Assembly (NCBI GenBank): GCA_049964655.1
Contig: JBMFXC010000007.1
Location: 1-51,818, forward strand
Source of the DNA: Acidimicrobiales bacterium
Lineage (GTDB): Bacteria > Actinomycetota > Acidimicrobiia > Acidimicrobiales > RAAP-2
Length of the DNA stretch: 51,818 bases
Direction: 5' to 3'
The first letter of the stretch is position 1. Every line of letters begins with the position of its first letter. Below are positions 11,203 to 51,674 of this stretch, one piece after another. A model generated the notes under the pieces. The model had not been told where the DNA came from, did no database searches, and saw only the letters and a program-made list of their open reading frames with translations. The position numbers and the translations under genes were made by a program.

Positions 11203-11290
11203 CAGGGTGCCGAGGCTACTGGCACCGGGCACACCACCGACAACGCGCCTGTTCGCGTCGGCCGACACCGTGGCCCGTGGCCTCGGATGC

Positions 11291-11319: not shown

Positions 11320-11362
11320 TGCATCAACAGGCCGTACCCACGGCACCCATGTAGGAGGACCG

Positions 11363-11752
11363 ATGCCCCGCTTCGAACGATCACTTCCCGACCTCGACCC
11401 CGCCCAGGTGGCCCAAGAGCTCGCACGTCGGGCGCGGGACGCCGCCTACGTCGCCGTCGGTGCTGGCGTGCTCGGCTACCAACGGCTGCAGGTGCAGCGT
11501 CGGGAGCTCGAAGCGCGCCTGGGTCAGCCGCGCACCGACGTCCAGAGCCGGCTGTCGACCGTGCGGGACGACGTCACCGGCGTGCTCGCAGACGTCGACC
11601 AGCGGGTCGAGGCACTCGTCGAGCAGGTCGAGGCGGTGCTGTCGCCGCTCGAGCAGCGCCTTCCCGAGCCTGCCCGCGACCTCGCCGCCCAGGCGCACGA
11701 GCTGGCACGTGACGTGCGCGCCCAGCTCCGCGAGCGGCTGACCAACGCCTGA
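11363..11752 (+). CDS. Small coiled-coil protein (apolipoprotein/phasin-like helical repeats), function unknown
   Basis: ORF 11207..11752 trimmed to the ATG at 11363, which is preceded by AGGAGG. 129 aa, rich in E/R/A/L/Q heptad-like helices (RLQVQRRELEARL.., VEALVEQVEAVLSPLEQRL). Confidence 0.7.
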   Translation: MPRFERSLPDLDPAQVAQELARRARDAAYVAVGAGVLGYQRLQVQRRELEARLGQPRTDVQSRLSTVRDDVTGVLADVDQRVEALVEQVEAVLSPLEQRLPEPARDLAAQAHELARDVRAQLRERLTNA

Positions 11753-16635: not shown

Positions 16636-16767
16636 CTCGGCACCCGCACCGGGCAGCCGGACAACGCCCGCTGGTCGGCGCCTCGCGCCGGCGGTAGTGT
16701 GCCCGACCATGCGCATCCGCCGGCACCTCGCCGCCCTGGCGCGGGACCGGCGAGGCGGCAGCCGGTC

Positions 16768-27741: not shown

Positions 27742-28509
27742 TCATCCGGTGGTGCGGAGGTGGGTCACGTCACCCGCCGAGACGACCTGGCGTCCGGTGG
27801 TGGTCTCCACGACGAGCCGACCGTCGGCGGTGAGGTCGACGGCCGTTCCCCAGATGTGCTCGTCGGCCAGGTCCACCCGGACCCGGGCACCCAACGTGGT
27901 GCACGCCGAGCGCAGCTCGGCGGCGAGCCGACGCCGGCCCGCCGGCTCGTCGAGCGCGGCGGCGCGGGGCTCGAGGGCGGCGAGCAGGCCGTCGAGCAGT
28001 TCTCCTCGTGGTACGACCCGCCCGGCCAGGGCGACGAGCGAGGTGGCACGTCCAGCCAGGTCGGCAAGGGCCGGCTCGGCGAGGTCGGCGTCGTCGGTCG
28101 GCCAGGTGACGTTGACCCCGATGCCGACGACCACGGCGTCGCCCTCGGCCTCGGCCAACACCCCGGCGACCTTGCGCCCGTCGGACGCGAGCAGGTCGTT
28201 GGGCCACTTGACCCCGAGCACAACCCCGCCCACCTCGGCAGCGGCCTCCGCCGCCGCCAAGGCGACGCACGCTGTGGTCAAGTACCGCTCGGAGAGAGGG
28301 AGGTGGGGGCGGACGAGGACGGAGGCCAGCAGGCAGGCGCCCGGTGGCGCCTCCCACCGCCGACCGAGCCGGCCGCGGCCGGCCGACTGGTGGTCGGCGA
28401 CGACGACAACGCCGTCGGGGGCACCGCGACGGGCCTCATCGAGCAGGTAGCGGTTGGTCGAGTCGAGCTCATCGAAGCGACGCACGTCGGCGAAGCGAGA
28501 GGCCGGCAT
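27742..28509 (-). CDS. birA: Biotin-[acetyl-CoA-carboxylase] ligase, group I (no N-terminal HTH)
   Basis: ORF trimmed to the ATG at 28509-28507. Motifs STNRYLLD, QSAGRGRLGRRWEAPPG (GRGRxGRxW) and KWPNDLL. 255 aa. Confidence 0.9.
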   Translation of the reverse strand: MPASRFADVRRFDELDSTNRYLLDEARRGAPDGVVVVADHQSAGRGRLGRRWEAPPGACLLASVLVRPHLPLSERYLTTACVALAAAEAAAEVGGVVLGVKWPNDLLASDGRKVAGVLAEAEGDAVVVGIGVNVTWPTDDADLAEPALADLAGRATSLVALAGRVVPRGELLDGLLAALEPRAAALDEPAGRRRLAAELRSACTTLGARVRVDLADEHIWGTAVDLTADGRLVVETTTGRQVVSAGDVTHLRTTG

Positions 28510-28627
28510 GGCGGAGACCCTACGGCTCGTGCCACTCTGGTAGCCATACCCCACCTGCCGGCGGCCACCGCCGCCGGTCGACGCGGTCACGACACCCCGG
28601 CCGCGCTCACGAACGGAAAGGTGCAGC

Positions 28628-30400
28628 GTGCTCACGAAGGTCCTCATCGCCAATCGGGGAGAGATCGCCGTACGGGTCATCCGGACCTGCCGCGAGCTGG
28701 GCGTGGCAACCGTCGCCGTGTACTCCGAGCTCGACCGCGACGCCCTCCACGTCCGCCTGGCCGACGAGGCCTACGCCCTGGGCGGGCAGACAGCCGCCGA
28801 GAGCTACCTGAACACCGAGGCGATCCTGTCGGCCATCGAGCGCAGCGGGGCCGACGGGGTCCATCCGGGCTACGGCTTCTTCTCGGAGAACGCTGCGTTC
28901 GCCCGGGCGATCACCGAGCGAGGCGTGACCTTCATCGGGCCTCCCCCCGAGGCCATCGAAGTGATGGGCGACAAGATCAGCTCCCGGCACGCTGCCGAAC
29001 GGGCCGGCGTCTCCGGCGTCCCGGGCCGCTCGGAGACCCTCCGCTCTCCGGACGAGGTGGTGGCCTTCGGGGAGGAGTTCGGATGGCCCGTGGCCATCAA
29101 GGCCGCCTATGGCGGCGGTGGGCGAGGCATGAAGGTGGTCGCCTCGGCCGGCGAAGCGGCGCATGCGCTCGAGTCGGCCCAGCGCGAGGCCCAGGCCTAC
29201 TTCGGCCGTAGCGAGTGCTACCTCGAGCGCTACCTTCCCTGGCCCCGGCACGTCGAGATGCAGATCATCGCCGACACCTTCGGCAACACGGTGTGGCTCG
29301 GCGAGCGCGACTGCTCGTGCCAGCGTCGGCACCAGAAGCTCATCGAGGAGAGCCCGGCGCCCGACTTTCCCGACGAGGTCCGCCACGCCATGGGAGAAGC
29401 CTCGGTGCGCGTCGCCGAGGCGTGCGGCTACGTCAACGCCGGGACCGTCGAGTTCCTCTACCAGGACGGCGAGTTCTTCTTCCTCGAGATGAACACGCGC
29501 CTGCAGGTGGAGCACCCGGTGACCGAGCTGGTCACCGGGCTCGACTTGGTCGAGTGGCAGCTCCGGGTGGCTTCGGGTGAGGCGCTCGGCTTCACCCAGC
29601 AGGACGTCCGTCGTGACGGACACGCCATCGAAGTCCGGATCAACGCCGAAGACCCTGCCGGCGGCGCCTTCACTCCCTCGCCGGGGACGATCACCTCGCT
29701 CGTCCCTCCCGGAGGGCCGGGCGTCCGGCTCGACGCCGGCTACCAGGCTGGGGACACGGTCAGCCAGTTCTACGACAACCTGGTGGCAAAGCTGGTGGTC
29801 TGGGGGCACGACCGCGAGGCGGCCCGTCGGCGCATGCTGCGCGCCATCGACGAGACGAAGATCGAGGGGGTGGCCACCACGCTGCCGGCAGACATCGCCA
29901 TCTTGGCGCACGAGGACTTCGCCTCGGCCACCCACTCGACCAACTGGGTCGAACAGCGGCTCGACCTGTCCGAGGTGCGCTCGGGCCCCGGCCCGGTGGC
30001 ACCGGCCGGCGAGGGCGAAGAAGCCCGGGTCCTGCGCGACGTGACGGCCGAAGTCGACGGGCGCCGCTACCAGGTCAAGCTCTGGGTACCTGACACCGGT
30101 GACGCGGTGGTGGCTTCGGGACGCACGGCGGCGGCAAACCGTCCTGCCGGAGGACGCCGGCCCAAGGCAGTGACGGGTGCCTCCGGGTCCGGCACCGTGT
30201 CGGTCCCCATGCAGGGGACGATCGTCAAGGTGGCTGTGTCCGAGGGCGACGAGGTCGAAGTCGGACAAGTCGTCTGCGTGCTCGAAGCCATGAAGATGGA
30301 GAACAACGTGGTCGCCGAGAAGGCCGGCACGGTGACGGACGTCCGCGTGTCCGCCGGCGACTCCGTCGCTCCCGGCGACGTCATCGCCGTGATCGAGTAG
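28628..30400 (+). CDS. accA: Acyl-CoA (acetyl/propionyl) carboxylase alpha subunit: biotin carboxylase + BCCP domain
   Basis: [22 protein letters not shown], an ATP-grasp region, [14 protein letters not shown], and a C-terminal biotinyl motif EAMKMEN. 590 aa. Confidence 0.95.
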
Positions 30401-41057: not shown

Positions 41058-42026
41058 GTGCGGGCAGCCGTCTATCGAGCGACAGGCGACAGTGGCGTCC
41101 TGTCGGTGGAGGAGCTCCCGAGGCCCGAGCCCGGGCCGGGCGAGGTGCGCGTGCGGATCGTGTGGTCGGGAGTCAACCCGACCGACTGGAAGACCCGGTC
41201 GGGAGCGACCGGCGCTCCCCCGACCGACTTCCAAGTGCCCCATCAGGACGGTGCCGGAGTGGTCGACGCCGTCGGCCCAGGGGTCACCGACCGGTCCCCC
41301 GGCCAGCGGGTCTGGGTGTACCTCGCGGCATTCGGGAACCGTTGGGGCACGGCTGCGGAGTACTGCGTGGTGCCGGCCGAGCGCACCGTCCCTCTCCCCC
41401 GCGACGTGACGGACGAACTGGGGGCCTCCCTCGGGGTCCCGGCGGTCACGGCGGCTCACTGTCTCGGCGGCGTGCCCGAGCAGCTCGCCGGGAGGACCGT
41501 GCTCGTCGCCGGGGGAGCCGGGGGCGTCGGGCACTTCGCCATCGAACTGGCCAAGCACGCCGGTGCACGCGTCGTCACGACGGTGAGCTCCTCCGAGAAG
41601 GCCGAACTGGCCCGAGCCGCCGGTGCCGACCTGGTGGTGGACTACCGCCGGCCCGGTCTCCTCGAGCAGGTGCGGTCGTTCACCCCGACAGTCGACCGGG
41701 TCGTCGAGGTGGCGCTCGGAGCCAACCTCGAGCTCGACCTGGCGCTGTCCCGGCCCGGCACCGAGCTCGTCACCTATGCCACCGAGGCCGACGATCCAGT
41801 CCTGCCCACCCGTCGGCTGATGAACGCCAACGCGACGCTCCGGTTCGTGCTCCTCTACGGCGTGCCGGCGACCGAGCTCGCTGCCGCGGTGGCGTGGGTG
41901 GAGCGGGCAGTTGGAACAGGGGCGTTGACGGCGCTTCCCCTCCATCGTTTCCCCCTCGACGAGGTGGCGGCTGCCCAGGATGCCGTCGAAGGCGGAGCCG
42001 TCGGCAAGGTCCTGGTCGCCCCCTGA
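41058..42026 (+). CDS. NADPH:quinone oxidoreductase (zeta-crystallin-type MDR, zinc-independent)
   Basis: Motifs GEVRVRIVWSGVNPTDWK, VLVAGGAGGVGHFAIELAK (AxxGxxG) and a C-terminal GKVLV. Confidence 0.87.
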   Translation: MRAAVYRATGDSGVLSVEELPRPEPGPGEVRVRIVWSGVNPTDWKTRSGATGAPPTDFQVPHQDGAGVVDAVGPGVTDRSPGQRVWVYLAAFGNRWGTAAEYCVVPAERTVPLPRDVTDELGASLGVPAVTAAHCLGGVPEQLAGRTVLVAGGAGGVGHFAIELAKHAGARVVTTVSSSEKAELARAAGADLVVDYRRPGLLEQVRSFTPTVDRVVEVALGANLELDLALSRPGTELVTYATEADDPVLPTRRLMNANATLRFVLLYGVPATELAAAVAWVERAVGTGALTALPLHRFPLDEVAAAQDAVEGGAVGKVLVAP

Positions 42027-42182
42027 CCGGCGTCGTCCCCGCCGGGGACGACGCCGCGGGCGGAGCCCGCACGACGCCTCCAGTGGCCACGTCACCACCT
42101 TTCCGTCACTGCCGAGGCAGCCCGCCCGACGCCCGCGAGCCCAACGGCAGGGCCGACCGCCTGGGGTCGGACCGACCTCCGG

Positions 42183-42539
42183 TCACGTCCGAGCGGCCTT
42201 GTCCTTCCTGATGCGGACATCGGCGAGAGCGGCGAGGAGCTCGCCGACCCGGTGCGGCTGCTCGACCGGGTGCCTAACCGGAACGTCGGGGTGGACCTCG
42301 TAGGAGTTGCGCCGGCCGACCCGCTTGCGGGTGACGTACCCGGCGGCCACCAGGTCGGCGACGATCGCCTGGGCAGCCCGCTCGGTGATGCCCACGCGGT
42401 CGGCGATGTCGCGCCCTCGGATGCCCGGGTCTTTGGCGATGCACACCAAGACGTGCCCGTGGTTGGTCAGGAACGTCCATGTCGGCTTGGTCGGGCCGTC
42501 GGGCGGCCGACCGGGGACGTCGGGCTTCTTGGTGGCCAC
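42183..42539 (-). CDS. Small winged-helix (ArsR/MarR-like) transcriptional regulator, divergent from the dab operon
   Basis: HTH core GIRGRDIADRVGITERAAQAIVADLVAAGYVTRKRVGRRNSYEV. 118 aa. Confidence 0.8.
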   Translation of the reverse strand: MATKKPDVPGRPPDGPTKPTWTFLTNHGHVLVCIAKDPGIRGRDIADRVGITERAAQAIVADLVAAGYVTRKRVGRRNSYEVHPDVPVRHPVEQPHRVGELLAALADVRIRKDKAART

Positions 42540-42585
42540 ACGCGGATGGTAGCGCCGTTCGTGAACTCGGGACCGTACATCGGGC

Positions 42586-42614
42586 TTGTCGACACTCCCA
42601 TCATGATGTATAAC
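42586..42614 (+). promoter_or_regulatory. Candidate dab promoter (-35 TTGTCG, 17-bp spacer, -10 TATAAC) with the 10-bp palindrome CATCATGATG (42599-42608) in the spacer
   Basis: Read directly in the AT-richest patch of the window. GAGGAGGG RBS at 42641-42648 and GTG start at 42652. Confidence 0.3.
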
Positions 42615-42651
42615 TCACGAAGTTTGTTTCGCGAGTTTTCGAGGAGGGATT

Positions 42652-44193
42652 GTGGTCGCACTGTGGATCGGACGGATCGCCCTGGTGTCCTCGGTCGTCC
42701 TGCCACTGCTGGGCGGCACCGTCGGCCGCTTTCGCCGCGGACGGTCGGCCTGCGTGCCGCTGTCGTGGGCGGCGGCGGCGGCGGCGCTCGTCGTCCTCGG
42801 GGTGGTCGTCGTCCACGGCCCCGACGCTCTCGCGGTGCGCGGCGGTCCCGGGCTGGTGGCCGATCCCGTCTCCGCAGTGGTCCTCCTGCTGGTGACCGGG
42901 GTCGGCGCCGTCGTGCAGAGCTTCTCGGTCCGCTACCTGCAGGCCGACCCGTCGTCGGGCCGCTTCGCCGGACGGGTCGGCGCCGTGGTGACCGCCATGA
43001 CCCTGGTCGCCGCCTCTGCCGACCTCGTCGGGCTGGCCGTGGGCTGGACGGTGGCGGGCGTGGCGTTCCTCGGGGTGCTCTCCTGTCGGAACGACCTCCC
43101 CGGAGTGGCCGGGTGCTCCCGGGCGCTCCGCCGCGCCCTCGTCGTCGGCGACGGCTGCCTGCTGGCAGCGATCGCGCTCGTCCTCGACCGGGCCGGCGAC
43201 GTGCAGCTCAGCTCGGCGCACGCGCTCGAGCTGGCCGTCCGACAGCTGGGTCCGTGGCACGGCGTAGTCGCCGTGCTGGTCACGGTGGCAGCGCTGGCCC
43301 GCGGCGCCCAAGGCATCTTCTCCCGCTGGCTTCCTCGGACGATCTCCGCTCCCACGCCCGCCTGCGCGCTCCTCCACGCCGGGGTGGTCAACGGCGGCGG
43401 GGTGCTGCTCGTCCGCACCGGTGCGCTGGGTGCCTGGGGACCGGCCATGGTCGGCCTGCTGGTCATCTCGGGAGCAACGGCGGTCCGGGCCAGCCTGATC
43501 ATGCGCCGGCAAGCCGACGTGAAGGGCAAGCTGGCCTACTCGACGATGGCCCAGATGGGCTTCATGTTGTCCGAATGTGCGGTGGGCGCCTACCCGGCCG
43601 CGGTCATCCACCTGGTCGCCCACGGCTGTTACAAGGCGTCACTGTTCTTCTCTTCCGGCTCGGCCGTTCGTCGGCCCGGCCGACCCACCACCACCTCGGC
43701 GGCGTCAGCGCCCGTCCTGGCCACGGCAGCGATGGCTCTCGCCGCCACCATCGCCGTGGTGCCGGGGCTGGTGATCGGCGACGGTGTGGTACTGGCCGCC
43801 TTCGCTGCCGTGACGGCGGCGTCGCTGGCGGCAGCCGTAGGTTCGTCGCTGTCGGTGGGTCCGAGGTCCGGCCGGGGTCGGTGGAGCGTGCTCCTCTTCG
43901 CCGCTGCTGCCGGCTACGGGTCGCTGGTCGCCGTCGTCGGCCGATTTCTGGCCCATGGTGCGGTGGCCGTCGCCGGCAGCACCGTCGACCCGTGGTGGCT
44001 GGTCGCAGGGGCGATCGTCGCCGGCTCCGCCGCGTGGATGGCGGAGCGCAGCCCATGGGCGGGAGCCGTTCGGGGGCGGCTCCTCGACGCCGGGTGTCCC
44101 CGAGCGACCACCGACCAGCCTCCGCGTCGCCCGGTTACCGACGTGCCGGCAGATGCCAGCTGCGCTCTGGCCGTCGAGGGGAGGGCGGCATGA
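42652..44193 (+). CDS. dabB: DabB: proton-conducting membrane subunit (NuoL/MrpA/PF00361-like) of the DAB inorganic-carbon pump
   Basis: 513 aa, with about 12-14 TM helices and the NuoL-type core AYSTMAQMGFM. GTG start with a strong RBS. Its stop overlaps the dabA ATG. Confidence 0.87.
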   Translation: MVALWIGRIALVSSVVLPLLGGTVGRFRRGRSACVPLSWAAAAAALVVLGVVVVHGPDALAVRGGPGLVADPVSAVVLLLVTGVGAVVQSFSVRYLQADPSSGRFAGRVGAVVTAMTLVAASADLVGLAVGWTVAGVAFLGVLSCRNDLPGVAGCSRALRRALVVGDGCLLAAIALVLDRAGDVQLSSAHALELAVRQLGPWHGVVAVLVTVAALARGAQGIFSRWLPRTISAPTPACALLHAGVVNGGGVLLVRTGALGAWGPAMVGLLVISGATAVRASLIMRRQADVKGKLAYSTMAQMGFMLSECAVGAYPAAVIHLVAHGCYKASLFFSSGSAVRRPGRPTTTSAASAPVLATAAMALAATIAVVPGLVIGDGVVLAAFAAVTAASLAAAVGSSLSVGPRSGRGRWSVLLFAAAAGYGSLVAVVGRFLAHGAVAVAGSTVDPWWLVAGAIVAGSAAWMAERSPWAGAVRGRLLDAGCPRATTDQPPRRPVTDVPADASCALAVEGRAA

Positions 44194-46805
44194 GCACACG
44201 GACGTTCTCCACCAGCCACGTCGTGGCACTCGTCGAGCGGGCCACCCGTGTGGTCCCCGTGCTGTGGCCTCTCGAGTCGGCTGTGGCGGCCAACCCCCTC
44301 TGGGACCTGCGCTCCCACTCCTTCTCCACCGCGCTCGCCCACGCCCGACGGGCACTTGGCATCGTCGGGCTGCCGTCTGCCGACGTACTGGCCGACGCCT
44401 TCCGGGTGGGACGCCTGACCGTCGCCGACCTCGAGGCCGCCCTCGACGACGTCGGCGACCTCGAACAGTCCGACAGGGTGGCAGAGGCGGAGCCCGTCCA
44501 CCGCGGAGCACCCACCTCCTCGCCGAGCACGATCGTCACCGTCCTCGAACGCCACGACCAGCTCACCGGAGGGACGGCGGCCACCGAGGTCGACCGCGAG
44601 GTGGCCAAGTACTGCGCGGCCTACCTGGGCGGCCTGCTCGGCCCCTCGGGCGCGGCCGGCCCCTCGGGCACGGCCGGCCCCTCGGGCACGGCCGGCAACG
44701 GCTTCCTCGACCAGTGGAGGGCGGCCGTGGTCGACGATCCCGTCGCTCGGCGCTTGGGCCTCCGAGGCGTGCTCGAAGCGGTGGTCGGTGGCCCCGAGAC
44801 GGTGATCGCCACCGTCCTCGCCCGGCTCGCGCTCGACGAGATGGGTGCCGTGGAGGAGCTGACCGGGCAGTCGGCACGCCTGCTCGGGTGGGCGGCGCAC
44901 GCCAAGTGGCGGTCGCGCTGGGCCGCCGCCGACCATCCCGGCCCTGCCCTTCACCTCGTCGACTACCTCGCCGTCCGGCTCCTCTACGACCTGGCCGCCC
45001 TGGAGCACCTCGGGCACCGAGCCGGCGCCGGGGCCTGCTGCGACCACCTCCGTCCCGCTCCGGGCAACCCGCCCGAGGTCCCACCCGCTGCGCTCGTCGG
45101 GGGGGCCACCGGCGACCGCCTGGCTGGGCTCGATCCCGGTGCGGCCGCGGCGGTGTGGCTGGCCGCCTACGAGGCCCACTACCGCGACGACCTCCTGGCC
45201 GTCCTCGAGCGGCCGTCGTCGCGGCCGTCGGCACCTCCGTCACCACGAGCCCTACGTGCACAGGTGGTCTGCTGCATCGACGTCCGCTCGGAGGGGCTCC
45301 GCCGGCACCTCGAGGCGTCCGGTCACTACGAGACCTTCGGCTTCGCCGGGTTCTTCGGCGTCCCTGCTCGCGTCTGGCCCTTCGACGGCGGCAGACCCCT
45401 CGACCTGTGCCCCGTCTTGCTGCACCCGACGGTGGAACTGACCGAGGAGGCCGGCGAGGAGACCGCCGGTGAGGCGAGGCATGCCGGGCTCCGGCAGCTC
45501 GTCGTCGTCGAACGAGCGGTGGAGACCACCCGCGAAGGGCCGGTCACCTCGTACCTGCTGGCCGAGTCCGCCGGCATGGGCCTCGGACCGTTGGCAGTGC
45601 TGCGGACGGCCGCTCCGGCCACGTTCGCCCGCCTGCGCCGTTGGGTCCTCGCTCGCCTGGCTCCACCTGTGGATGTGCACCCGGTCCTGTCCGGCCCGGG
45701 AGCCCCGAGCGACGACGAGCAGGCGCTCTTCGTCGAGACGGCACTCCGGACGATGGGGCTCACCGACCGGTTCGCTCCCGTGGTGGTCCTCTGCGGGCAC
45801 GGCAGCACGACCGAGAACAACCCCTACGGCTCGGCACTCGACTGCGGTGCCTGTGGTGCGGCACGGGGAGGGACGAGCGCTCGCCTGGCCGCGGCCATGG
45901 GCAACCGGGCGGACGTGCGAGCGCTCCTGGCGGCTCGGGGCATCGTCGTCCCCGACGAGACGGTGTTCGTCGCCGCCGAGCACGACACGGCGACCGACAC
46001 CGTCACCGTCTTCCCCCCGGCCGAGCTGACACCGACCCAGGCGGACCGGCTTGCCTTGGTCGAGCAGGACCTCGCTCACGCCGGAGCCGAGCTGGCCGTG
46101 GAACGGGCTGCCACCCTGCCTGGCGCGGTGCGGCGTCCCCGCCGAGGTGCCGCTCGCCACCTGGCCACTCGTTCTGCGGACTGGGCCCAGGTCCAGCCCG
46201 AGTGGGGCCTGGCCCGCTGCGCCGCACTGGTGGTCGGACCGCGCCGGCTCACGGTGGGTGTCGACCTCGAGCGGCGCACCTTCCTCCACTCCTACGATCC
46301 CGGGACCGATCCAGACGGTGCCGCCCTCGAAGCGATCCTCACCGGGCCCATGGTCGTCGCCCAGTGGATCTCGTCCGCCTACTACCACTCGGTCGTCGAC
46401 CCCGACGTCCTCGGTGCCGGCGACAAGGTGTCCCACAACGTGGTGGCCGGCGTCGGCGTGTACCAGGGAGCCGGCGGCGACCTTCGCCTCGGCCTGCCCC
46501 GTCAGTCCGTCTTCGTCGGCGACGAGCCGTACCACGAGCCCATGCGCCTGCTCGTCGTGGTCGTCGCCCCTCGGGACCGCGTCGACGCCGTCGTCGCCCG
46601 CAACCCTGTCGTCGCCGAGCTGGTCGACGGCGAGTGGGTCCACCTCGCGGTACTCGACGACGACCGGTTCTGGCGGCGTCTGCCGGGCGGGGGCTGGCGG
46701 CAGTGGCAGCACGCCCGGACCGGCGAGCACCAACCGGACCGACTGGGCAGACCGTACGAGGTGGCCCCCACCGGTGGCCACGGAGAGGAGGAACAACATG
46801 GATGA
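44190..46805 (+). CDS. dabA: DabA (DUF2309/PF10070): beta-carbonic-anhydrase-like subunit of the DAB pump
   Basis: ATG at 44190 overlaps the dabB TGA (ATGA). Only the last 871 codons of the 1517-aa track ORF are used. Conserved Zn-site elements are CCIDVRSEG (Cys 45270-45275, Asp 45279-45281), CGHGS (His 45798-45800) and LDCGACGG (Cys 45843-45845). Confidence 0.92.
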   Translation: MSTRTFSTSHVVALVERATRVVPVLWPLESAVAANPLWDLRSHSFSTALAHARRALGIVGLPSADVLADAFRVGRLTVADLEAALDDVGDLEQSDRVAEAEPVHRGAPTSSPSTIVTVLERHDQLTGGTAATEVDREVAKYCAAYLGGLLGPSGAAGPSGTAGPSGTAGNGFLDQWRAAVVDDPVARRLGLRGVLEAVVGGPETVIATVLARLALDEMGAVEELTGQSARLLGWAAHAKWRSRWAAADHPGPALHLVDYLAVRLLYDLAALEHLGHRAGAGACCDHLRPAPGNPPEVPPAALVGGATGDRLAGLDPGAAAAVWLAAYEAHYRDDLLAVLERPSSRPSAPPSPRALRAQVVCCIDVRSEGLRRHLEASGHYETFGFAGFFGVPARVWPFDGGRPLDLCPVLLHPTVELTEEAGEETAGEARHAGLRQLVVVERAVETTREGPVTSYLLAESAGMGLGPLAVLRTAAPATFARLRRWVLARLAPPVDVHPVLSGPGAPSDDEQALFVETALRTMGLTDRFAPVVVLCGHGSTTENNPYGSALDCGACGAARGGTSARLAAAMGNRADVRALLAARGIVVPDETVFVAAEHDTATDTVTVFPPAELTPTQADRLALVEQDLAHAGAELAVERAATLPGAVRRPRRGAARHLATRSADWAQVQPEWGLARCAALVVGPRRLTVGVDLERRTFLHSYDPGTDPDGAALEAILTGPMVVAQWISSAYYHSVVDPDVLGAGDKVSHNVVAGVGVYQGAGGDLRLGLPRQSVFVGDEPYHEPMRLLVVVVAPRDRVDAVVARNPVVAELVDGEWVHLAVLDDDRFWRRLPGGGWRQWQHARTGEHQPDRLGRPYEVAPTGGHGEEEQHG
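44640..44693. repeat. 18-bp tandem repeat x3 inside dabA (GPSG(A/T)A)
   Basis: GGCCCCTCGGGC(G/A)CGGCC x3, read directly. Confidence 0.9.
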
Positions 46806-47124
46806 ACGATGGGGGCTTGCCCCCATGGTCAAGGTCGAGGTCGTCGTCTCGGGCGAGGACACCCAGGTGGTCACCGACCTGTTCTCGACGGCAGGGGCGG
46901 TGGGGTTCACCGCGGTGGCCAACGTGTCGGGCGTCGGCCACGGCGGTGCCCACCAGGGGAGACTGGCCTTCAACGACAGGAACGCCCTGGCGCTCCTGAT
47001 GGTGGTCCTTCCCCCCGACGGCGTGGACCGCCTCCTCGACGGGCTGCGGTCGCTCCTCGCCGAGCGTCCCGGCGTGCTGTTCGTGTCCGACACGTATGTG
47101 AGCCGTCCGGAGTACTTCCGATGA
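46798..47124 (+). CDS. PII-like signal-transduction protein (CPII/SbtB-analogous position)
   Basis: ATG at 46798 with GGAGAGGAGGAA just upstream; it overlaps the dabA stop by 8 nt. An alternative ATG at 46825 gives the canonical MVKVEVVV N-terminus. Beta-alpha-beta / loop / beta-alpha-beta pattern and a size of about 100-108 aa fit the PII superfamily. Confidence 0.72.
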   Translation: MDERWGLAPMVKVEVVVSGEDTQVVTDLFSTAGAVGFTAVANVSGVGHGGAHQGRLAFNDRNALALLMVVLPPDGVDRLLDGLRSLLAERPGVLFVSDTYVSRPEYFR

Positions 47125-48080
47125 CCCGCACCGCACCGTCCTCGGGGTCGCGGGCCGACGAACGCCTCGACACCGGCGGCCGGCTCGACGGGTTCCGGCT
47201 GCTCGTGACCGGCATCGCCACCGCAGACAGCATTGCCTTTGCGACTGCTCGCTCCGCCCAGCGCGCCGGGGCACGGGTGGTCGCAAGTGCCTTTCCCCGC
47301 GACGGCGACCGAGCCCGCCAGGCCGTCGCAACGCTGGACAACCCCATCCCCGTCGTCGAGTGCGACGCGACGTCCGCGGACGACCTGGGCCGACTCGGAG
47401 CAATCGTCGACAAGCTTCTCGGAGGGCTCGACGGCGTCGTGCACGCCATCGCCTACGCCCCGGCCGAGCTGCTCGGCGGGACGCTGCTTGACGCGCCGAC
47501 CGACAGGGTCGGGATCGCCTTCACGACCAGCGTGGTGAGCTACGTCGCCCTCGGCCGGCTCCTCGCCGGACTGGCGCCGACGGCCGGCGGGTCGCTCGTC
47601 GGGCTCGACTTCGACGCCTCGGGGGCTTGGCCCGTCTACAACTGGATGGGCATCTGCAAGGCAGCCCTCGAGTCGGCCAACCGCTACCTGGCCCGCGACC
47701 TCGGACCGCGGCGGATCCGGGCCAACTTGGTCGCCGCCGGCCCGCTCCACACCCGGGCGGCCGACGCCATCCCCGGGTTCGGGCACCTCCTCGAGGCATG
47801 GGAGACGACCGCCCCGCTCGGATGGGACCCCACCGACGCCGACGTCGCGGCCGACGCGGTGTGCTTCCTCCTGTCGGAGGCCGCCGCGGCCATCACCGGC
47901 GAGATCCTCCATGTCGACGGCGGCTACCACGCCATGGCGGCGCCGCTGCGTCCGATCGCCGGCGAGCCGACAGACCCGTCGACAAGCCAGGCGGCGACGC
48001 ACGACGACGACGTCACGGACGTGGACGACGGCCGACCGTTCGACATGACGCAAGCGGTCAGGGAAGGAGTAACGCGATGA
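47121..48080 (+). CDS. InhA/FabI-type NADH-dependent enoyl-[ACP] reductase homologue
   Basis: ATG at 47121 overlaps the PII-like TGA (ATGA). LLVTGIATADSIAF, and WPVYNWMGICKAALESANRYLARDLG..IRANLVAAGPL with Tyr-x6-Lys, closely resemble mycobacterial InhA. 319 aa, with a roughly 50-aa acidic C-terminal tail. Confidence 0.86.
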   Translation: MTRTAPSSGSRADERLDTGGRLDGFRLLVTGIATADSIAFATARSAQRAGARVVASAFPRDGDRARQAVATLDNPIPVVECDATSADDLGRLGAIVDKLLGGLDGVVHAIAYAPAELLGGTLLDAPTDRVGIAFTTSVVSYVALGRLLAGLAPTAGGSLVGLDFDASGAWPVYNWMGICKAALESANRYLARDLGPRRIRANLVAAGPLHTRAADAIPGFGHLLEAWETTAPLGWDPTDADVAADAVCFLLSEAAAAITGEILHVDGGYHAMAAPLRPIAGEPTDPSTSQAATHDDDVTDVDDGRPFDMTQAVREGVTR

Positions 48081-48853
48081 CCGTGCCAGCTGGGCTACAA
48101 CGAGGTGGCACCCCCCGCCACGGTGGTGGCGAGCGCCGACGGCGATCCAACCAGTGGAGTCCCGACCCGGGAAGCTCACCCCCGCCGTGCTGGCAGGAGG
48201 CGGCGAGCGACGGCGACCGGCTGCGGTTCGCCTGTGCCACGCTCGCCCGCCACGGCATCGCCGTCGCCCCCGCCCAGGACGGCCATCCCGCACAGATCGA
48301 GCGTCGCTTGGTGGCCGACGTCCGCTCCGCCTTCGAGGCCTCCGATGGCGCCGTGGTGTTCTGGACCGCCGAAGAGCACGCCCGCTCCCTCGGACCCGAC
48401 GGCACGTTGCTCGGTCGCCTGGTGGTCCACGTGCACGGTCCCGGCGTGGCGCGAGCCGCCACCGCCGCCTTCGAGCAGGCCGGACTCGCCGTGGATCCAG
48501 GACCAGTGCCGGGCGTCCTGCTCGTCGGTCCGGACCAGACCGAGGAGGACCCGACCACCGACTGGTTCGCGGGCATCGAGGTGCGGGGGGTCCGCACGGC
48601 ACGCCACCAGCCCGACGCCTCCGAGGTGAGCCGGAGGCTCGAGGCGACGACTCTTTGCGTCGAACGCGTCGACGCTCGTGACGACGGTTCGTTCGTCGTC
48701 GTGCTCACTCGCCACGACGGGGCACTGCTCACCGACTCCGACGTCGCCGACGCGCTCTCTGCACTGGGAGGCTTCTTCGGCTGGGAGAGCCTCGCCAAGG
48801 TGCGACCCGACGTCCTCGCTCCTCGCGGCGAGCAGCGTCGTCGCCTCCCGTGA
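48077..48853 (+). CDS. Hypothetical protein (258 aa), operon member
   Basis: ATG at 48077 overlaps the upstream TGA (ATGA), and its stop overlaps the next GTG. No motif I can assign. Composition is coding-like from about aa 45 onward. Confidence 0.62.
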   Translation: MTVPAGLQRGGTPRHGGGERRRRSNQWSPDPGSSPPPCWQEAASDGDRLRFACATLARHGIAVAPAQDGHPAQIERRLVADVRSAFEASDGAVVFWTAEEHARSLGPDGTLLGRLVVHVHGPGVARAATAAFEQAGLAVDPGPVPGVLLVGPDQTEEDPTTDWFAGIEVRGVRTARHQPDASEVSRRLEATTLCVERVDARDDGSFVVVLTRHDGALLTDSDVADALSALGGFFGWESLAKVRPDVLAPRGEQRRRLP

Positions 48854-49704
48854 CGGCGACCCAGGCCACCTACTCGGGGCGGACGGCGGCGCTGGCCACC
48901 AAGCACGGTAAAGGGCCGCTCATCGCTACCCCCCTCGCTGCCGTCGGCCTCGAGGTAGTCGTGACGCCCGTCGACACCGACAGCTTCGGCACCTTCACCG
49001 GCGAGGTCCCGCGTCGTGGTTCGCCCCTCGAGGTGGCCGTGCGCAAAGCCCGAGCCGCCATCGAGGCCTCTGGGCTCGACGTGGGCCTGGCCTCCGAAGG
49101 GTCCTTCGGTCCGCATCCGGCGATGCCCGTCGTGACCACCGATCTCGAGCTGGTCGTCCTGGTCGACGACCGCCTCGGGGTCACCGTGTCGGAACGGGTC
49201 GTCACCACGGCGACGGCGGCGGCATCACTCGAAGTGACCGCCACCACCGGCTCCGCCGAGCTCGAACGCTTCTGCAACCAGGTCGGCTTTCCCGACCAGG
49301 CGCTGATCTGCCGGCCGGCCGACGGCACGCGGCAGGCGATCACCAAGGCCATCACCTCCCTCGACGAGCTCCGCCGGGCCGTCCGCACCGCCACGGGGGC
49401 CTCCCGCGACCGACGCGCCGTGGTCGAGACCGACCTGCGCGCCCACCTCTGCCCCACGCGCCGGGTAGCCATCGTCGAGGCCGCGACCCGCCTGGCCCGG
49501 CGCCTGGCCTCACGCTGTCCCCGGTGCGACACCCCTGGCTTCGGACAGGTGGGGACCGAGGCAGGGCTCCCGTGCCGGTGGTGTGGCCTGCCCACCGACG
49601 CGCCAGCTGCACTCGTCGACGCGTGTGCGCGCTGCGACTTCCGGCAACGCCGGCCCGTCGCCGGCGACGCCGACCCGTCGACCTGTCCGGCCTGCAACCC
49701 CTGA
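48850..49704 (+). CDS. Hypothetical protein (284 aa) with a C-terminal 4xCxxC zinc-ribbon module
   Basis: GTG at 48850 overlaps the upstream TGA (GTGA). Conserved-looking N-domain (ATKHGKGPLIA, DTDSFGTFTGE, ASEGSFGPHP). C-terminal CPRC..CRWC..CARC..CPAC (49516-49701). Possibly DUF6671-like (memory only). Confidence 0.72.
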   Translation: MTATQATYSGRTAALATKHGKGPLIATPLAAVGLEVVVTPVDTDSFGTFTGEVPRRGSPLEVAVRKARAAIEASGLDVGLASEGSFGPHPAMPVVTTDLELVVLVDDRLGVTVSERVVTTATAAASLEVTATTGSAELERFCNQVGFPDQALICRPADGTRQAITKAITSLDELRRAVRTATGASRDRRAVVETDLRAHLCPTRRVAIVEAATRLARRLASRCPRCDTPGFGQVGTEAGLPCRWCGLPTDAPAALVDACARCDFRQRRPVAGDADPSTCPACNP

Positions 49705-49901
49705 CCGACTGCCTCCCCGGGGGTGACCAGGGCGCCGGCCAGCCTGCAACCCCGGACGGTCGAGCGCCGGCCCGGCCCGGTCCCGTCCACTCCGCCTGGC
49801 AACAGCACGTGCCAGCTCCCCGGCGAGCCGACGCGCAAGGAGCCGAGCAAGTGCGGTGACGACGGTGGGATCGACCCGTCCAGATCACCATCGGAGCTGC
49901 C

Positions 49902-50693
49902 GTGCCCTCGACCACAGACTCGACCACAGACCCTCGGCCGATGGCGGCCGTCCTGCAGGTGACCGCCTGGCACGACCCGGTCGTCGACGCCCACGGGATG
50001 CATCCCTGTTCGCGCTACGTCGAGCTCTACTGGCTCGGCGTGCTCGGTCCGTCGACGACGTGGTTGCTGCGCCGCGTCACCTACGGCCTCGAAGTGCACG
50101 AAACGGGCTTCGCCCTCGACCTCGTCGAGACCGCCTGCTCCCTCGGACTGGGAGGGAGACTGGGCCCCAACTCGTCCTTCCGGCGGGCCCTTCGCCGGCT
50201 CGTCACCTTCGAGCTGGCTCGCCCCTCCGGTCCCTCGGGCCTCGCCGTCCGTACACGGGTTCCCCCACTCCCGCTCCGTCATCTCCAACGACTTCCGGTG
50301 TCGTTGCAACGGAGCCACCAGCGCTACCTCGAAGAGCAGCTGCTCGACGACGTCGAGCGCAGTCGACGACGAGCGACCCGTCTGGCCGCCGGGCTGGCCG
50401 CCTCGGGGCAGGATGCTCGGGCCATCGAAGCCGCGCTCGCCCGCTGGCAGTTCCACCCCGCCGTCGCCTACCAGGTCGCTCGCGACGTCTTGGGCGGGGG
50501 CGGCGTCGCGGCAGCCGTCCCCGCTCGCACCGGTGACGCCAGCACCGGTGACGCTCGCACCGGTGACGCTCGCACCGGTGACGCCAGCACCGGTGACGCC
50601 AGCACCGGTGACGCCAGCCAGGACGGGACAGCCGCCCTCGGCGGAGGGCTCTACCCGGACGGGCCGCGACCGGTCTTGAGGGTTCCCCGGTAG
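49902..50693 (+). CDS. Hypothetical protein with a C-terminal (T/S)GDA(S/R) pentapeptide array
   Basis: GTG at 49902 with GGAG 5 nt upstream (alternative ATG at 49941). The N-domain YVELYWLGVLGPSTTWLLRRV...FRRALRRLVTFELA looks like a conserved actinobacterial, possibly winged-helix, protein. Confidence 0.62.
   Translation: MPSTTDSTTDPRPMAAVLQVTAWHDPVVDAHGMHPCSRYVELYWLGVLGPSTTWLLRRVTYGLEVHETGFALDLVETACSLGLGGRLGPNSSFRRALRRLVTFELARPSGPSGLAVRTRVPPLPLRHLQRLPVSLQRSHQRYLEEQLLDDVERSRRRATRLAAGLAASGQDARAIEAALARWQFHPAVAYQVARDVLGGGGVAAAVPARTGDASTGDARTGDARTGDASTGDASTGDASQDGTAALGGGLYPDGPRPVLRVPR
50528..50617. repeat. 15-bp tandem repeat x6 (CACCGGTGACGC(C/T)(A/C)G), coding
   Basis: Six exact-length units read directly. 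Two sequence variants occur in the order A-B-B-A-A-A. Confidence 0.92.
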
Positions 50694-50702
50694 GTTGGGC
50701 CC

Positions 50703-51674
<972 letters not shown>

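What the first reader, a model, noticed from the sequence alone, without database searches (positions are those of the whole stretch)
42183..49704. Extended, fully translationally coupled DAB operon: DabB-DabA + PII-like + InhA-type reductase + two unknown proteins, with a divergent wHTH regulator
SEEN:
- Six + strand genes are joined without a single intergenic base: dabB/dabA ATGA at 44190, dabA/PII-like 8-nt overlap at 46798-46805, PII-like/reductase ATGA at 47121, reductase/hyp1 ATGA at 48077, and hyp1/hyp2 GTGA at 48850.
- A 118-aa winged-helix regulator is divergently transcribed across a 112-bp AT-rich gap.
- DabA carries the Cys/Asp...His...Cys elements (CCIDVRSEG, CGHGS, LDCGACG). DabB is a NuoL/MrpA-like antiporter-type subunit.

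ESTABLISHED:
- DabA (DUF2309/PF10070) and DabB (PF00361) form an energy-coupled CO2-hydrating inorganic-carbon pump, known as DAB in Halothiobacillus and MpsAB in Staphylococcus.
- PII-like proteins (CPII, SbtB) are known partners of Ci-uptake systems in autotrophs.

INFERENCE:
- To my knowledge, a six-gene module that hard-wires a Ci pump to a PII-like sensor, an enoyl-ACP reductase paralogue and two uncharacterised proteins (one a Zn-ribbon protein) has not been described.
- There is no RuBisCO or carboxysome context in the window.
- This suggests a heterotroph-type module coupling bicarbonate supply to carboxylase-dependent lipid synthesis, or to an unknown carboxylation chemistry.
- AccA and BirA lie 12 kb upstream in the same window.
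Basis: partly seen in the sequence, partly recalled or inferred. Interest (0 to 1): 0.85.

Follow-up and report, generated by a model that had tools for sequence, protein, structure and literature searches.

The report
Extended DAB carbon-pump operon with partners
An uncultured actinobacterium has welded a known CO2-to-bicarbonate pump (DabBA) into one operon with a bicarbonate-sensing PII protein, a fatty-acid reductase and two uncharacterised proteins, and one of those proteins (DUF6671) also sits beside three unrelated carbon-uptake systems in many other bacteria, which makes it a new candidate player in bacterial CO2 handling.

Summary
Six + strand genes are joined by 4- or 8-nt start/stop overlaps, opposite a divergent 118-aa winged-helix (wHTH) regulator:
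- dabB
- dabA
- a CPII-type PII gene
- fabI
- a tandem ACT-like gene
- DUF6671

The core is a known two-subunit DAB pump with its known PII partner.

Three things are new.
1. The accessory genes recur with DAB in shuffled arrangements across Actinomycetota. A widespread form is dabB-dabA-(PII)-purK-purE-fabI, and 5 of 5 sampled FabI homologues were DAB-linked.
2. In 80 metagenome loci chosen only for DUF6671, 22 carry DabA, an SbtA-type transporter or a β-carbonic anhydrase within 6 kb. The rate is 11 of 23 where flanks are adequate.
3. A conserved inverted repeat, TCACGAA-N6-TTCGTGA, sits between a −10-like box and dabB. It also lies upstream of a separately transcribed DUF6671 in another genome.

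Best reading: a bicarbonate supply-and-demand regulon of a probably heterotrophic, acid-habitat actinobacterium.

Still unproven:
- the exact six-gene order occurs in only two genomes;
- the FabI "paralogue" status is untested;
- the functions of DUF6671 and the ACT-like protein are unknown.

Rating: new variant of a known kind, moderately high interest.

The parts
42183..42539 (-). 118-aa winged-helix (HTH_24/MarR_2) regulator, divergent from dabB
   Evidence: Pfam HTH_24 30.2 bits and MarR_2 30.8 bits. It is 68-86% identical in most relatives (55% in L019) whose DabA is only 42-61% identical. Homologues lie next to DAB, Sbt_1, β-CA or DUF6671 in other phyla.
42558..42565 (.). TTCGTGAA half-palindrome close to the regulator's start codon; possible autoregulatory site
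   Evidence: Read. Equivalent TTCACGAA/TTCGTGAA elements occupy the same position in L004, L006, L009, L013 and L112. The functional reading is inference.
42609..42614 (+). -10-like hexamer TATAAC of the putative dabB promoter
   Evidence: Conserved as TGTATAA(C/A) immediately 5' of the operator in L001-L004 and L016. The consensus scan reported no sigma-70 promoter, so this is inference.
42615..42634 (+). Operator-like inverted repeat TCACGAA-N6-TTCGCGA, 17 nt upstream of the dabB GTG
   Evidence: It is the only match in the window at 2 mismatches or fewer (expected 0.09). The same motif lies upstream of dabB (in the reg|dabB gap where reg is present) in L001-L004, L006, L013, L017, L019, L024 and L112. 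It also lies 37 nt upstream of DUF6671 in L027/L028.
42652..44193 (+). dabB: NuoL/MrpA-like proton-conducting membrane subunit (513 aa)
   Evidence: PF00361 100.6 bits and PF00662 38.1 bits. A GGAGG Shine-Dalgarno sequence lies upstream.
44190..46805 (+). dabA: β-CA-like CO2-hydrating subunit (871 aa)
   Evidence: PF10070 730.6 bits, covering 1-747 of 747 profile positions. C362/D364/H537/C552 are spaced as in Hnea DabA2.
46798..47124 (+). CPII-type PII-like protein (108 aa)
   Evidence: PF00543 56.4 bits. The best solved relatives are CPII entries 5d4n/5d4l at E 1e-18, against E about 1e-3 for GlnK. It lies directly downstream of dabA in 16 of 25 related genome loci.
47121..48080 (+). FabI-family enoyl-ACP reductase (319 aa) with N- and C-terminal extensions
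   Evidence: NCBIfam PRK07889 FabI 301.2 bits (cut-off 299). InhA structures match at E 1e-52, and the DFD...YNWMGICK catalytic Phe/Tyr/Lys are kept. Five of 5 sampled homologues lie in DAB operons.
48077..48853 (+). hyp1: two-domain protein (258 aa). The N-domain (about residues 25-151) is a DUF6891-related family; the C-domain is lineage-restricted.
   Evidence: 52 relatives among 1.8 billion cluster representatives. 14 of 49 aligned members hit DUF6891. AF2 pLDDT 86, with ACT/ferredoxin-like top fold hits. N-domain homologues follow dabA, PII, FabI or ICDH.
48850..49704 (+). DUF6671 protein (284 aa): ITPase-like α/β domain plus a C-terminal domain with four invariant CxxC pairs
   Evidence: PF20376 152.5 bits. 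At least 1095 homologues. Invariant H19, K21, R55, K66, E83, E100, D106, D195, R197 and R204, plus 8 Cys. AF2 pLDDT 95.8. Ham1/ITPase are the top fold hits in two libraries. It is linked to DAB, Sbt_1 or β-CA in 22 of 80 independently seeded loci.

Best explanation
WHAT IT IS
The locus is a DAB2-type (two-subunit, no DabC) vectorial CO2-hydrating pump operon of an uncultured, high-GC actinobacterium. Its DAB relatives come mainly from Acidimicrobiia, including named acidophiles, and from uncultured Actinomycetes MAGs.

HOW IT MOST LIKELY WORKS
1. CO2 diffuses into the cell.
2. DabA hydrates it to bicarbonate at a β-CA-like zinc site, driven by proton flow through DabB. This mechanism is established for the family.
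3. A CPII-type PII protein probably tunes the pump according to bicarbonate and adenylate status. This step is inferred from homology.
4. The divergent small wHTH protein probably binds the TCACGAA-N6-TTCGTGA inverted repeat that abuts the -10-like box, and so controls transcription. This step is inferred from position and conservation.
5. The pump is co-expressed, through translational coupling, with FabI, a tandem ACT-like protein and DUF6671.

WIDER CONTEXT
- These genes belong to a conserved actinobacterial neighbourhood that ties bicarbonate supply to bicarbonate-demanding or CO2-linked metabolism.
- The supply side is DAB, and sometimes β-CA or SbtA.
- The demand side is PurK/PurE, TsaC, fatty-acid synthesis via FabI, and isocitrate dehydrogenase.
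- The window is one permutation of this neighbourhood, in which purK-purE were replaced by the ACT-like gene and DUF6671.
- DUF6671 is most likely a nucleotide-binding accessory enzyme or sensor of inorganic-carbon homeostasis. Its substrate is unknown.
For: SHOWN
- Family identities and zinc-site residues.
- CPII orthology.
- Absence of a DabC-like membrane ORF, because the genes abut one another, set against the DAB1 definition.
- Junction overlaps conserved in relatives.

RECURRENCE IN DIFFERENT ORDERS
- wHTH is present in 12 of 25 DabA-seeded genome loci, PII in 16, DUF6671 in 9, FabI in 5 and the hyp1 N-domain in 4.
- DUF6671 lies upstream and divergent in L007-L009, L011 and L013.
- DUF6671 lies downstream in L005, L019 and L023.
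- FabI lies between DUF6671 and reg in L009 and L013, and upstream of dabB in L010.

FabI
- The same order occurs in L027/L028.

DUF6671
- Of 80 DUF6671-seeded metagenome loci, 22 have a Ci system within 6 kb: DabA in 10, Sbt_1 in 11 and β-CA in 2, with one locus holding both Sbt_1 and β-CA.
- Among the 23 loci with at least 3 kb on both flanks, 11 have a Ci system.
- Other recurrent neighbours are ICDH (14), PurE (7), PurK (5) and TsaC (4).
- The neighbour identities were confirmed with Pfam.

OPERATOR
- One site in the window against 0.09 expected.
- The same motif lies upstream of dabB in 10 further loci, in the reg|dabB gap wherever reg is present. It also lies upstream of a separately transcribed DUF6671.

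LITERATURE
- DABs occur in RuBisCO-less heterotrophs and are proposed to feed bicarbonate-dependent carboxylases (10.1101/476713).
- B. subtilis has a canC-ndhF-mpsB operon and needs bicarbonate for anabolism (10.64898/2026.09.08.750065).
Against: - No expression, binding or activity data exist for any part of the locus.
- Only 52 kb of the genome is visible, so RuBisCO elsewhere cannot be excluded.
- FabI does not itself use CO2 or bicarbonate, so its link is indirect.
- If fabI and purKE are single-copy housekeeping genes, simple repression by a Ci-responsive repressor would be lethal. Regulation must then be leakier or different.
- About half of the well-flanked DUF6671 loci show no Ci gene within 6 kb. 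A Sulfobacillus locus also has none.
- The operator consensus is not found in more distant lineages, which carry other palindromes.
- The ITPase-like assignment is weak: TM 0.27-0.45 and hhalign probability 32%.
- Some related loci are near-duplicates (L004/L016, L007/L008, L014/L018, L027/L028), so the independent counts are somewhat lower than stated.
Confidence: 0.7

Rival explanations
1. The pump is part of an autotrophic CO2-concentrating mechanism. In this reading the DAB operon feeds a RuBisCO, with or without a carboxysome, encoded elsewhere in the genome, and the accessory genes are incidental.
For: - DabA is most often found in RuBisCO-bearing genomes, and CPII was described next to carboxysome loci.
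- From my own knowledge, some Acidimicrobiia fix CO2.
- Only 52 kb of the genome is visible.
Against: - No RuBisCO, carboxysome shell or CbbQO gene was found in the window.
- None was seen among the called genes with Pfam listings around related DAB loci.
- The recurrent partners are anabolic bicarbonate users and housekeeping enzymes (PurK/PurE, FabI, TsaC), not CBB-cycle genes.
- From my own knowledge, Ferrimicrobium, which carries the same gene set (L013), is described as a heterotroph.
Confidence: 0.15
2. The downstream genes are passengers. FabI, hyp1 and DUF6671 were captured into a tightly packed operon by genome streamlining and have no functional relation to inorganic carbon.
For: - The exact six-gene order is confined to the window and one 90%-identical relative.
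- 4-nt overlaps are common in this genome.
- FabI chemistry does not involve CO2.
- Roughly half of the DUF6671 loci lack a visible Ci gene.
Against: - Each accessory gene recurs with DAB in different orders and orientations and at low sequence identity (DabA 37-61%).
- DUF6671 associates with three non-homologous Ci systems across phyla.
- Five of 5 sampled FabI homologues are DAB-linked.
- The operator motif precedes DUF6671 where that gene is a separate transcription unit.
Confidence: 0.1
3. The module performs a new carboxylation chemistry. The DAB-linked FabI clade would act as a reductive carboxylase or otherwise use pump-derived Ci on an enoyl-thioester. DUF6671 would process a carboxylated or carbamoylated nucleotide such as N5-CAIR or threonylcarbamoyl-AMP.
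For: - FabI is tightly and repeatedly coupled to DAB and PurK/PurE.
- DUF6671 has enzyme-like invariant charged residues and an ITPase-like fold.
- DUF6671 sits next to PurE, PurK and TsaC in several loci.
Against: - FabI passes the FabI equivalog model and keeps the normal catalytic residues.
- Nothing indicates a CO2-binding pocket.
- From my own knowledge, the known reductive carboxylases belong to the MDR family, not the SDR family.
- No biochemical data exist.
Confidence: 0.05

Closest known systems
DAB2 (DabA2/DabB2) of Halothiobacillus neapolitanus; MpsAB of Staphylococcus aureus and Bacillus subtilis
   Same: - A two-gene PF00361 + PF10070 pair with the Cys/Asp/His/Cys β-CA-like zinc site at the same spacing.
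- No DabC subunit.
- Presumed proton-coupled, one-way CO2 hydration.
- B. subtilis also places a β-CA in its operon (canC-ndhF-mpsB), as does L019 here.
   Different: - The gene order is dabB then dabA, with an overlapping stop and start.
- The pump is embedded in a six-gene translationally coupled unit with FabI, an ACT-like protein and DUF6671.
- Control is by a small wHTH regulator rather than the LysR regulators seen next to proteobacterial-type loci.
CPII, the carboxysome-associated PII-like protein of Thiomonas intermedia (PDB 5D4L/5D4N)
   Same: - The protein aligns over its full length at E 1e-18.
- It is encoded directly after a DUF2309/NuoL-like Ci pump.
   Different: - There is no carboxysome context here.
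- The gene overlaps dabA by 8 nt, and that junction is conserved as far as Ferrimicrobium.
- Ligand binding is untested.
SbtA-SbtB bicarbonate transporter module of cyanobacteria
   Same: - The logic is the same: a Ci transporter followed by a PII-like regulator.
- In metagenome loci, Sbt_1 (PF05982) is followed by DUF6671, once with a small PII-like ORF between them (L085).
   Different: - The transporter family is different.
- DUF6671 has not, to my knowledge, been described as a partner of SbtA in cyanobacteria.
ITPase/Ham1/RdgB (and Maf/YjjX) house-cleaning NTP pyrophosphatases
   Same: - They are the best fold matches for the DUF6671 N-domain in both PDB and BFVD.
- hhalign aligns LAT..GK..E and ..KAR motifs (K21 and K66 of DUF6671 with K13 and K53 of RdgB).
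   Different: - TM-scores are low and hhalign probability is 32%.
- The set of invariant residues differs.
- DUF6671 has an added C-terminal four-CxxC zinc-ribbon domain.
- Genomic context is Ci uptake, not nucleotide sanitation.
FabI / InhA enoyl-ACP reductases
   Same: - It matches the equivalog-level FabI model.
- It keeps the Phe/Tyr/Lys catalytic residues and is closest to mycobacterial InhA structures.
   Different: - It has a shorter substrate-binding loop than InhA and fails the InhA-specific model.
- It has about 20-aa N-terminal and about 45-aa C-terminal extensions.
- Its clade is encoded inside DAB operons.

Membership tests
DAB (DabA/DabB vectorial carbonic anhydrase) | DabA: full-length PF10070 domain | tested here: met
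   730.6 bits, profile positions 1-747 of 747.
DAB (DabA/DabB vectorial carbonic anhydrase) | β-CA-like zinc ligands Cys-x-Asp ... His ... Cys | tested here: met
   C362/D364/H537/C552 have the same spacing as C351/D353/H524/C539 of Hnea DabA2.
DAB (DabA/DabB vectorial carbonic anhydrase) | Adjacent PF00361 membrane subunit (DabB) | tested here: met
   PF00361 100.6 bits, with a 4-nt overlap onto dabA.
DAB (DabA/DabB vectorial carbonic anhydrase) | Energy-coupled Ci uptake, shown by rescue of CA-free E. coli | not testable with these tools
   This needs an experiment.
DAB1 subtype | A small third membrane subunit, DabC, in the operon | tested here: not met
   All six genes abut one another and none is a small membrane protein. 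DabC defines DAB1. The locus is therefore DAB2-like.
CPII-type PII-like protein | PII fold/domain, closer to CPII than to GlnB/GlnK | tested here: met
   PF00543 56.4 bits. 5d4n/5d4l match at E 1e-18, against E about 1e-3 for GlnK.
CPII-type PII-like protein | Bicarbonate-dependent adenine-nucleotide binding | not testable with these tools
   This needs biochemistry.
FabI enoyl-ACP reductase | Equivalog HMM score above the curated cut-off | tested here: met
   NF005908 (PRK07889) scores 301.2 bits against a cut-off of 299, a narrow pass.
FabI enoyl-ACP reductase | Catalytic Tyr-x6-Lys plus the upstream Phe | tested here: met
   DFD...YNWMGICK aligns with InhA DFD...YNWMTVAK.
InhA (mycolate-type, long-chain) | InhA-specific NCBIfam model above its cut-off | tested here: not met
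   NF040631 scores 222.4 bits against a cut-off of 430. The substrate-binding loop is shorter than in InhA.
FabI 'paralogue' (a second copy beside a housekeeping FabI) | A second fabI in the same genome | not testable with these tools
DUF6671 (PF20376) | Pfam domain above the gathering score | tested here: met
   152.5 bits against 23.8. The family invariants are present.
ITPase-like superfamily (Ham1/RdgB/Maf) | Shared fold and the phosphate-binding Lys motifs | tested here: inconclusive
   Foldseek top hits have probability 1.0 but TM only 0.27-0.45. hhalign against E. coli RdgB gives probability 32% and E 5e-4 over 60 columns.
DUF6891 (PF21831), for hyp1 | Pfam domain hit | tested here: inconclusive
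   The window protein has no hit. 14 of 49 aligned homologues hit the family, best E 6e-10.
MarR/wHTH transcription factor | Winged-helix DNA-binding domain above threshold | tested here: met
   HTH_24 scores 30.2 bits (cut-off 21.9) and MarR_2 scores 30.8 bits (cut-off 27).
Carboxysome/RuBisCO-linked CCM locus | RuBisCO, shell or CbbQO genes nearby | tested here: not met
   None was found among the ~41 window ORFs scanned with Pfam.

The most novel reading that the evidence does not exclude
DUF6671 would be a previously unrecognised, widespread component of bacterial inorganic-carbon homeostasis. It would be an ITPase-fold, zinc-ribbon enzyme or sensor acting on a nucleotide: a signal, or a carboxylated or carbamoylated nucleotide such as N5-CAIR or TC-AMP. 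It would work alongside three unrelated Ci-acquisition systems (DAB, SbtA, β-CA). Together with a dedicated small wHTH regulator, its operator, a DAB-linked FabI clade and PurK/PurE, it would define a 'bicarbonate regulon' in heterotrophic Actinomycetota.
Probability: 0.35. Interest if true: 0.8.

Novelty: new variant of a known kind. Interest (0 to 1): 0.64.

Why it matters
DAB pumps are being engineered into crops and industrial microbes, and they matter for pathogens that must obtain bicarbonate in air. Their partners and regulation outside autotrophs are essentially unknown.

This locus and its relatives nominate concrete, testable accessory factors:
- a CPII regulator welded to dabA;
- a compact regulator-operator pair;
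- two uncharacterised protein families.

One of those families, DUF6671, tracks three unrelated carbon-uptake systems across phyla.

The repeated fusion of the pump with purK-purE and fabI also gives genomic evidence for which pathways are limited by bicarbonate in heterotrophs. Until now this question has been addressed mainly by supplementation experiments in carbonic-anhydrase mutants.

Tried and rejected
1. hyp1 related to the extra C-terminal domain of bacterial isocitrate dehydrogenase. This was suggested by the top Foldseek hit 2d1c and by ICDH neighbours. hhalign probability was about 0 against two such domains, so the idea was dropped.
2. Promoter and terminator consensus scan of 41900-50800. 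It found no promoter and only one terminator-like site, inside the regulator gene, at chance level. This is uninformative for a 72% GC actinobacterium.
3. DUF6671 profile against all PDB sequences. It returned only zinc-ribbon noise at E of 0.1 or higher.
4. NCBIfam. It has no model that hits DabA, hyp1 or DUF6671.
5. Word-indexed homologue search for hyp1. It found only one relative. The exhaustive phmmer search was needed.
6. The operator consensus was not found in the more distant dab-purKE-fabI loci L117-L121. Those have other palindromes around TTGACA-type promoters, so the operator claim is limited to the window's clade. Related ACAyGAA...TTCrTGT palindromes in other phyla are suggestive only.
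7. A Sulfobacillus DUF6671 locus has no Ci gene on its 9-kb contig, which shows the association is not universal.
8. Literature searches. DUF6671 appears in 0 papers. The search combining dab with purK, purE and fabI returned only noise.
The spatial clustering of the invariant DUF6671 residues could therefore not be examined.

Full report
**1. Observation**

The window is 72% GC. Reading the sequence confirms every coordinate in the finding.
- An 118-aa regulator lies on the − strand at 42183-42539.
- Six + strand genes follow: 42652-44193, 44190-46805, 46798-47124, 47121-48080, 48077-48853 and 48850-49704.
- Their junctions are ATGA, ATGGATGA, ATGA, ATGA and GTGA. No intergenic base is present.
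- All frames have GC3 of 0.82-0.89.
- Four of the six starts have a Shine-Dalgarno-like purine run; the fabI start has only a weak one. The GTG of the last gene has none, but it is the only start that keeps the conserved N-terminus of its family.
- The divergent gap is 112 bp at 52.7% GC.

How unusual is the coupling? Four-nucleotide overlaps occur at 6 of 24 other same-strand junctions in the window. Coupling as such is therefore normal for this genome. The run of five is still the longest in the window. It is conserved junction for junction in the closest relative (L001), and partly in L002 and Ferrimicrobium.

**2. Identities**

Pfam:
- Regulator: HTH_24/MarR_2.
- DabB: PF00361 (100.6 bits) plus PF00662.
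- DabA: PF10070 (730.6 bits, full length).
- P-II: 56.4 bits.
- adh_short_C2: 207 bits.
- hyp1: no hit.
- hyp2: DUF6671 (152.5 bits).

Further detail:
- DabA carries C362/D364/H537/C552. The spacing matches the mutationally validated zinc site of H. neapolitanus DabA2.
- No small membrane ORF is present. The pump is therefore DAB2-like, not the DabC-containing DAB1 type.
- The PII protein is a CPII orthologue. Its best solved relatives are 5D4N/5D4L at E 1e-18, against about 1e-3 for GlnK.
- The reductase passes the NCBIfam FabI equivalog PRK07889 narrowly (301.2 against 299) and fails the InhA model (222 against 430).
- It aligns to InhA structures at E 1e-52, with the catalytic Phe/Tyr/Lys conserved and a shorter substrate loop.

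**3. Organism and context**

- The nearest genome is a MAG, 'Actinomycetes bacterium HSP2.bin32' (DabA 90% identical).
- Other DabA relatives come from Acidimicrobiales MAGs, Ferrimicrobium acidiphilum, Aciditerrimonas and Mycobacteriaceae MAGs.
- Pfam scans of ~41 window ORFs show the following:
  - cell-envelope polysaccharide genes;
  - F420 biosynthesis genes;
  - FtsH;
  - BirA;
  - an AccA-type carboxylase;
  - methylmalonyl-CoA mutase;
  - a fatty-acid desaturase.
- No RuBisCO or carboxysome gene was found.

**4. Are the downstream genes linked to DAB elsewhere?**

Yes. I mapped the seven proteins by tblastn onto 25 genome loci chosen only for a DabA relative. Counts were:
- regulator: 12 loci
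- PII: 16 loci
- DUF6671: 9 loci
- FabI: 5 loci
- hyp1 N-domain: 4 loci
- purK/purE: 2 loci
- β-CA: 2 loci

The orders differ:
- DUF6671 is upstream and divergent in L007-L009, L011 and L013.
- DUF6671 is downstream in L005, L019 and L023.
- FabI lies between DUF6671 and the regulator in L009 and L013, and upstream of dabB in L010.

Conservation of a gene set through rearrangement is the classical sign of a functional link. Some loci are near-duplicates (L004/L016, L007/L008, L014/L018). The exact six-gene order exists only in the window and L001.

**5. FabI**

The FabI-like protein has thousands of homologues. The closest are 56-66% identical and are annotated FabI in Acidimicrobiales and Solirubrobacterales. 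All five lie in DAB operons:
- dabB-dabA-purK-purE-fabI (L117, L119)
- dabB-dabA-PII-purK-purE-fabI (L120, L121)
- dabB-dabA-fabI (L118)

L027/L028 show the same order. A widespread actinobacterial operon therefore joins the pump to PurK/PurE and FabI. PurK is the bicarbonate- and ATP-dependent N5-CAIR synthetase (established biochemistry). The window's lineage has swapped purK-purE for hyp1 and DUF6671. Whether this FabI is the only copy in these genomes could not be tested.

**6. DUF6671**

Family and fold:
- The family has at least 1095 members.
- Invariant residues are H19, K21, T43, R55, K66, E83, E100, D106, D195, R197 and R204, plus four CxxC pairs.
- AlphaFold gives pLDDT 95.8.
- The best fold matches in both PDB and BFVD are Ham1/RdgB-type ITPases, at probability 1.0 but TM only 0.27-0.45.
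- hhalign against E. coli RdgB aligns the LAT..GK and KAR motifs (probability 32%, E 5e-4).
- Profile search against PDB sequences finds nothing.
- I read it as a divergent ITPase-like, probably nucleotide-binding, domain fused to a double zinc ribbon. This is a lead, not a membership.

Context survey:
- Individual look-ups showed:
  - MarR(−)|DabB-DabA fusion-DUF6671 in Isoptericola;
  - LysR(−)|dabB-dabA-x-DUF6671 in a metagenome contig;
  - no Ci gene in a Sulfobacillus contig.
- A scan seeded only with the DUF6671 alignment returned 80 metagenome loci.
- Neighbour clustering, Pfam checks and tblastn show a Ci system within 6 kb in 22 of 80 loci: DabA in 10, SbtA-type Sbt_1 in 11 and β-CA in 2 (one locus has both Sbt_1 and β-CA).
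- The rate is 11 of 23 where both flanks are at least 3 kb.
- Other recurrent neighbours:
  - an isocitrate dehydrogenase with the bacterial C-terminal domain (14);
  - PurE (7);
  - PurK (5);
  - Sua5/TsaC (4);
  - a dihydroorotase-like amidohydrolase (6);
  - SOUL (6);
  - the wHTH regulator (9).
- For scale, a random gene should lie within 6 kb of any of a handful of Ci genes in roughly 1-2% of cases. This is my own estimate, not a computed control.
- No paper in the library mentions DUF6671.

**7. hyp1**

- Exhaustive phmmer found 52 relatives.
- Only residues about 25-151 are widely conserved. 14 of 49 aligned members hit DUF6891.
- The C-terminal half is limited to a few relatives.
- The AF2 model (pLDDT 86) has two α/β domains whose best fold matches are ACT/ferredoxin-like regulatory domains. 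The C-terminal one is a βαββαβ unit.
- N-domain homologues sit in several DAB-linked positions:
  - directly after dabA (L003, L112, L113);
  - after PII (L004, L016);
  - after FabI with a 4-nt overlap (L114);
  - after the same ICDH type, next to the regulator (L115).

**8. Regulator and operator**

- The regulator is much better conserved than the pump: 68-86% identical in most relatives (55% in L019), against 42-61% for DabA.
- The gap holds TATAAC (42609-42614) followed immediately by the inverted repeat TCACGAAGTTTGTTTCGCGA (42615-42634), 17 nt before the dabB GTG.
- This is the only match in the window (expected 0.09).
- The same motif lies upstream of dabB in L001-L004, L006, L013, L017, L019, L024 and L112, in the reg|dabB gap wherever reg is present.
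- It also lies 37 nt upstream of the separately transcribed DUF6671-ICDH unit in L027/L028.
- A TTCGTGAA element lies near the regulator's own start (42558-42565).
- The position next to the −10 suggests repression. This is inference.
- More distant lineages carry other palindromes.

**9. Interpretation**

Shown:
- a DAB2-type pump with a CPII partner;
- translational coupling;
- a conserved operator-like repeat;
- a conserved, shuffled gene neighbourhood.

Inferred:
- the pump supplies cytoplasmic bicarbonate for anabolic carboxylations, as proposed for heterotrophic DABs and MpsAB. From my own knowledge, CO2 is the main Ci species in acidic habitats, which would make such a supply especially useful there;
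- the wHTH protein controls the operon;
- FabI and PurK/PurE are co-expressed because their pathways depend on that bicarbonate;
- DUF6671 and the ACT-like protein are accessory regulators or enzymes.

Weak points are listed in the Against line. The main ones are that FabI has no direct chemical link to CO2, that no experimental data exist, and that only 52 kb of the genome is visible.

**10. Novelty**

- Already known: DabBA, its heterotrophic distribution, and PII next to DAB.
- Absent from the searchable literature: the DAB-purKE-fabI operon type, the DAB/SbtA/β-CA-DUF6671 association, the DUF6891-like partner, and the wHTH-operator pair.
- I rate the finding a new variant of a known kind, with moderately high interest.
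- From memory only, and not tested here: M. tuberculosis has purK-purE-fadE25 next to a SulP-β-CA fusion gene near birA. That would be a parallel arrangement.

Noticed in passing
L117-L121, L027/L028 (related loci): A widespread actinobacterial operon, dabB-dabA-(PII)-purK-purE-fabI, places the bicarbonate-dependent purine step and FabI directly behind the Ci pump. I found no description of it in the literature searches.
   Followed up: partly
L042, L051, L067, L073, L076, L085, L093, L095, L107, L108, L111: DUF6671 lies immediately next to an SbtA-type (PF05982) bicarbonate transporter. A LysR gene is often divergent, or the wHTH homologue sits directly upstream of DUF6671.
   Followed up: partly
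L019 (Mycobacterium sp. MAG) 5472-11579; L055 8645-10855: A β-carbonic anhydrase (Pro_CA confirmed by Pfam in L055; by tblastn to that protein in L019) is inserted between PII and DUF6671 in a DAB operon (L019). It also lies between the wHTH regulator and DUF6671 in a locus without DAB (L055).
   Followed up: partly
L026 3872-8008 (Isoptericola sp. b441): DabB and DabA are fused into one 1378-aa protein, followed by DUF6671 with an 8-nt overlap. The operator-like palindrome here is different: ACAGGAAA-N4-TTTCCTGT.
   Followed up: no
L035, L041, L047, L049, L052, L056, L057, L062, L071, L073, L086, L115 and others: An isocitrate dehydrogenase carrying the bacterial C-terminal domain (PF18324) is a frequent immediate upstream neighbour of DUF6671, and once of the hyp1 N-domain. 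The reason is unknown.
   Followed up: no
window 49941-50693 (+): A 250-aa ORF with no Pfam hit and a C-terminal run of TGDA(S/R) pentapeptide repeats. It lies 236 nt downstream of the operon and is conserved only in L001 (83% identical).
   Followed up: partly
window 15307-18437 (+): A 799-aa protein with a CofD domain only in its C-terminal third (residues 489-775). It overlaps a CofE (F420 ligase) gene by 4 nt. The roughly 480-aa N-terminal part has no Pfam hit.
   Followed up: no
window 289-2817 (-): An 842-aa ORF with strong coding signal (GC3 0.91) and no Pfam domain.
   Followed up: no
window 27742-28680 (-) / 28628-30400 (+): The BirA and AccA-type carboxylase genes are divergent, and the longest ORFs overlap by 53 nt at their 5' ends. 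At least one start is probably further downstream.
   Followed up: no
L088 about 9340-9385: Six tandem copies of CTGACC lie just past the 5' end of the (− strand) dabB match in a DAB locus.
   Followed up: no
L032 and L072: A BioD-like (dethiobiotin synthetase) gene, judged from its sequence motif only, and a dihydroorotase-like amidohydrolase precede DUF6671. These are further genes of bicarbonate- or carboxylase-related pathways.
   Followed up: no
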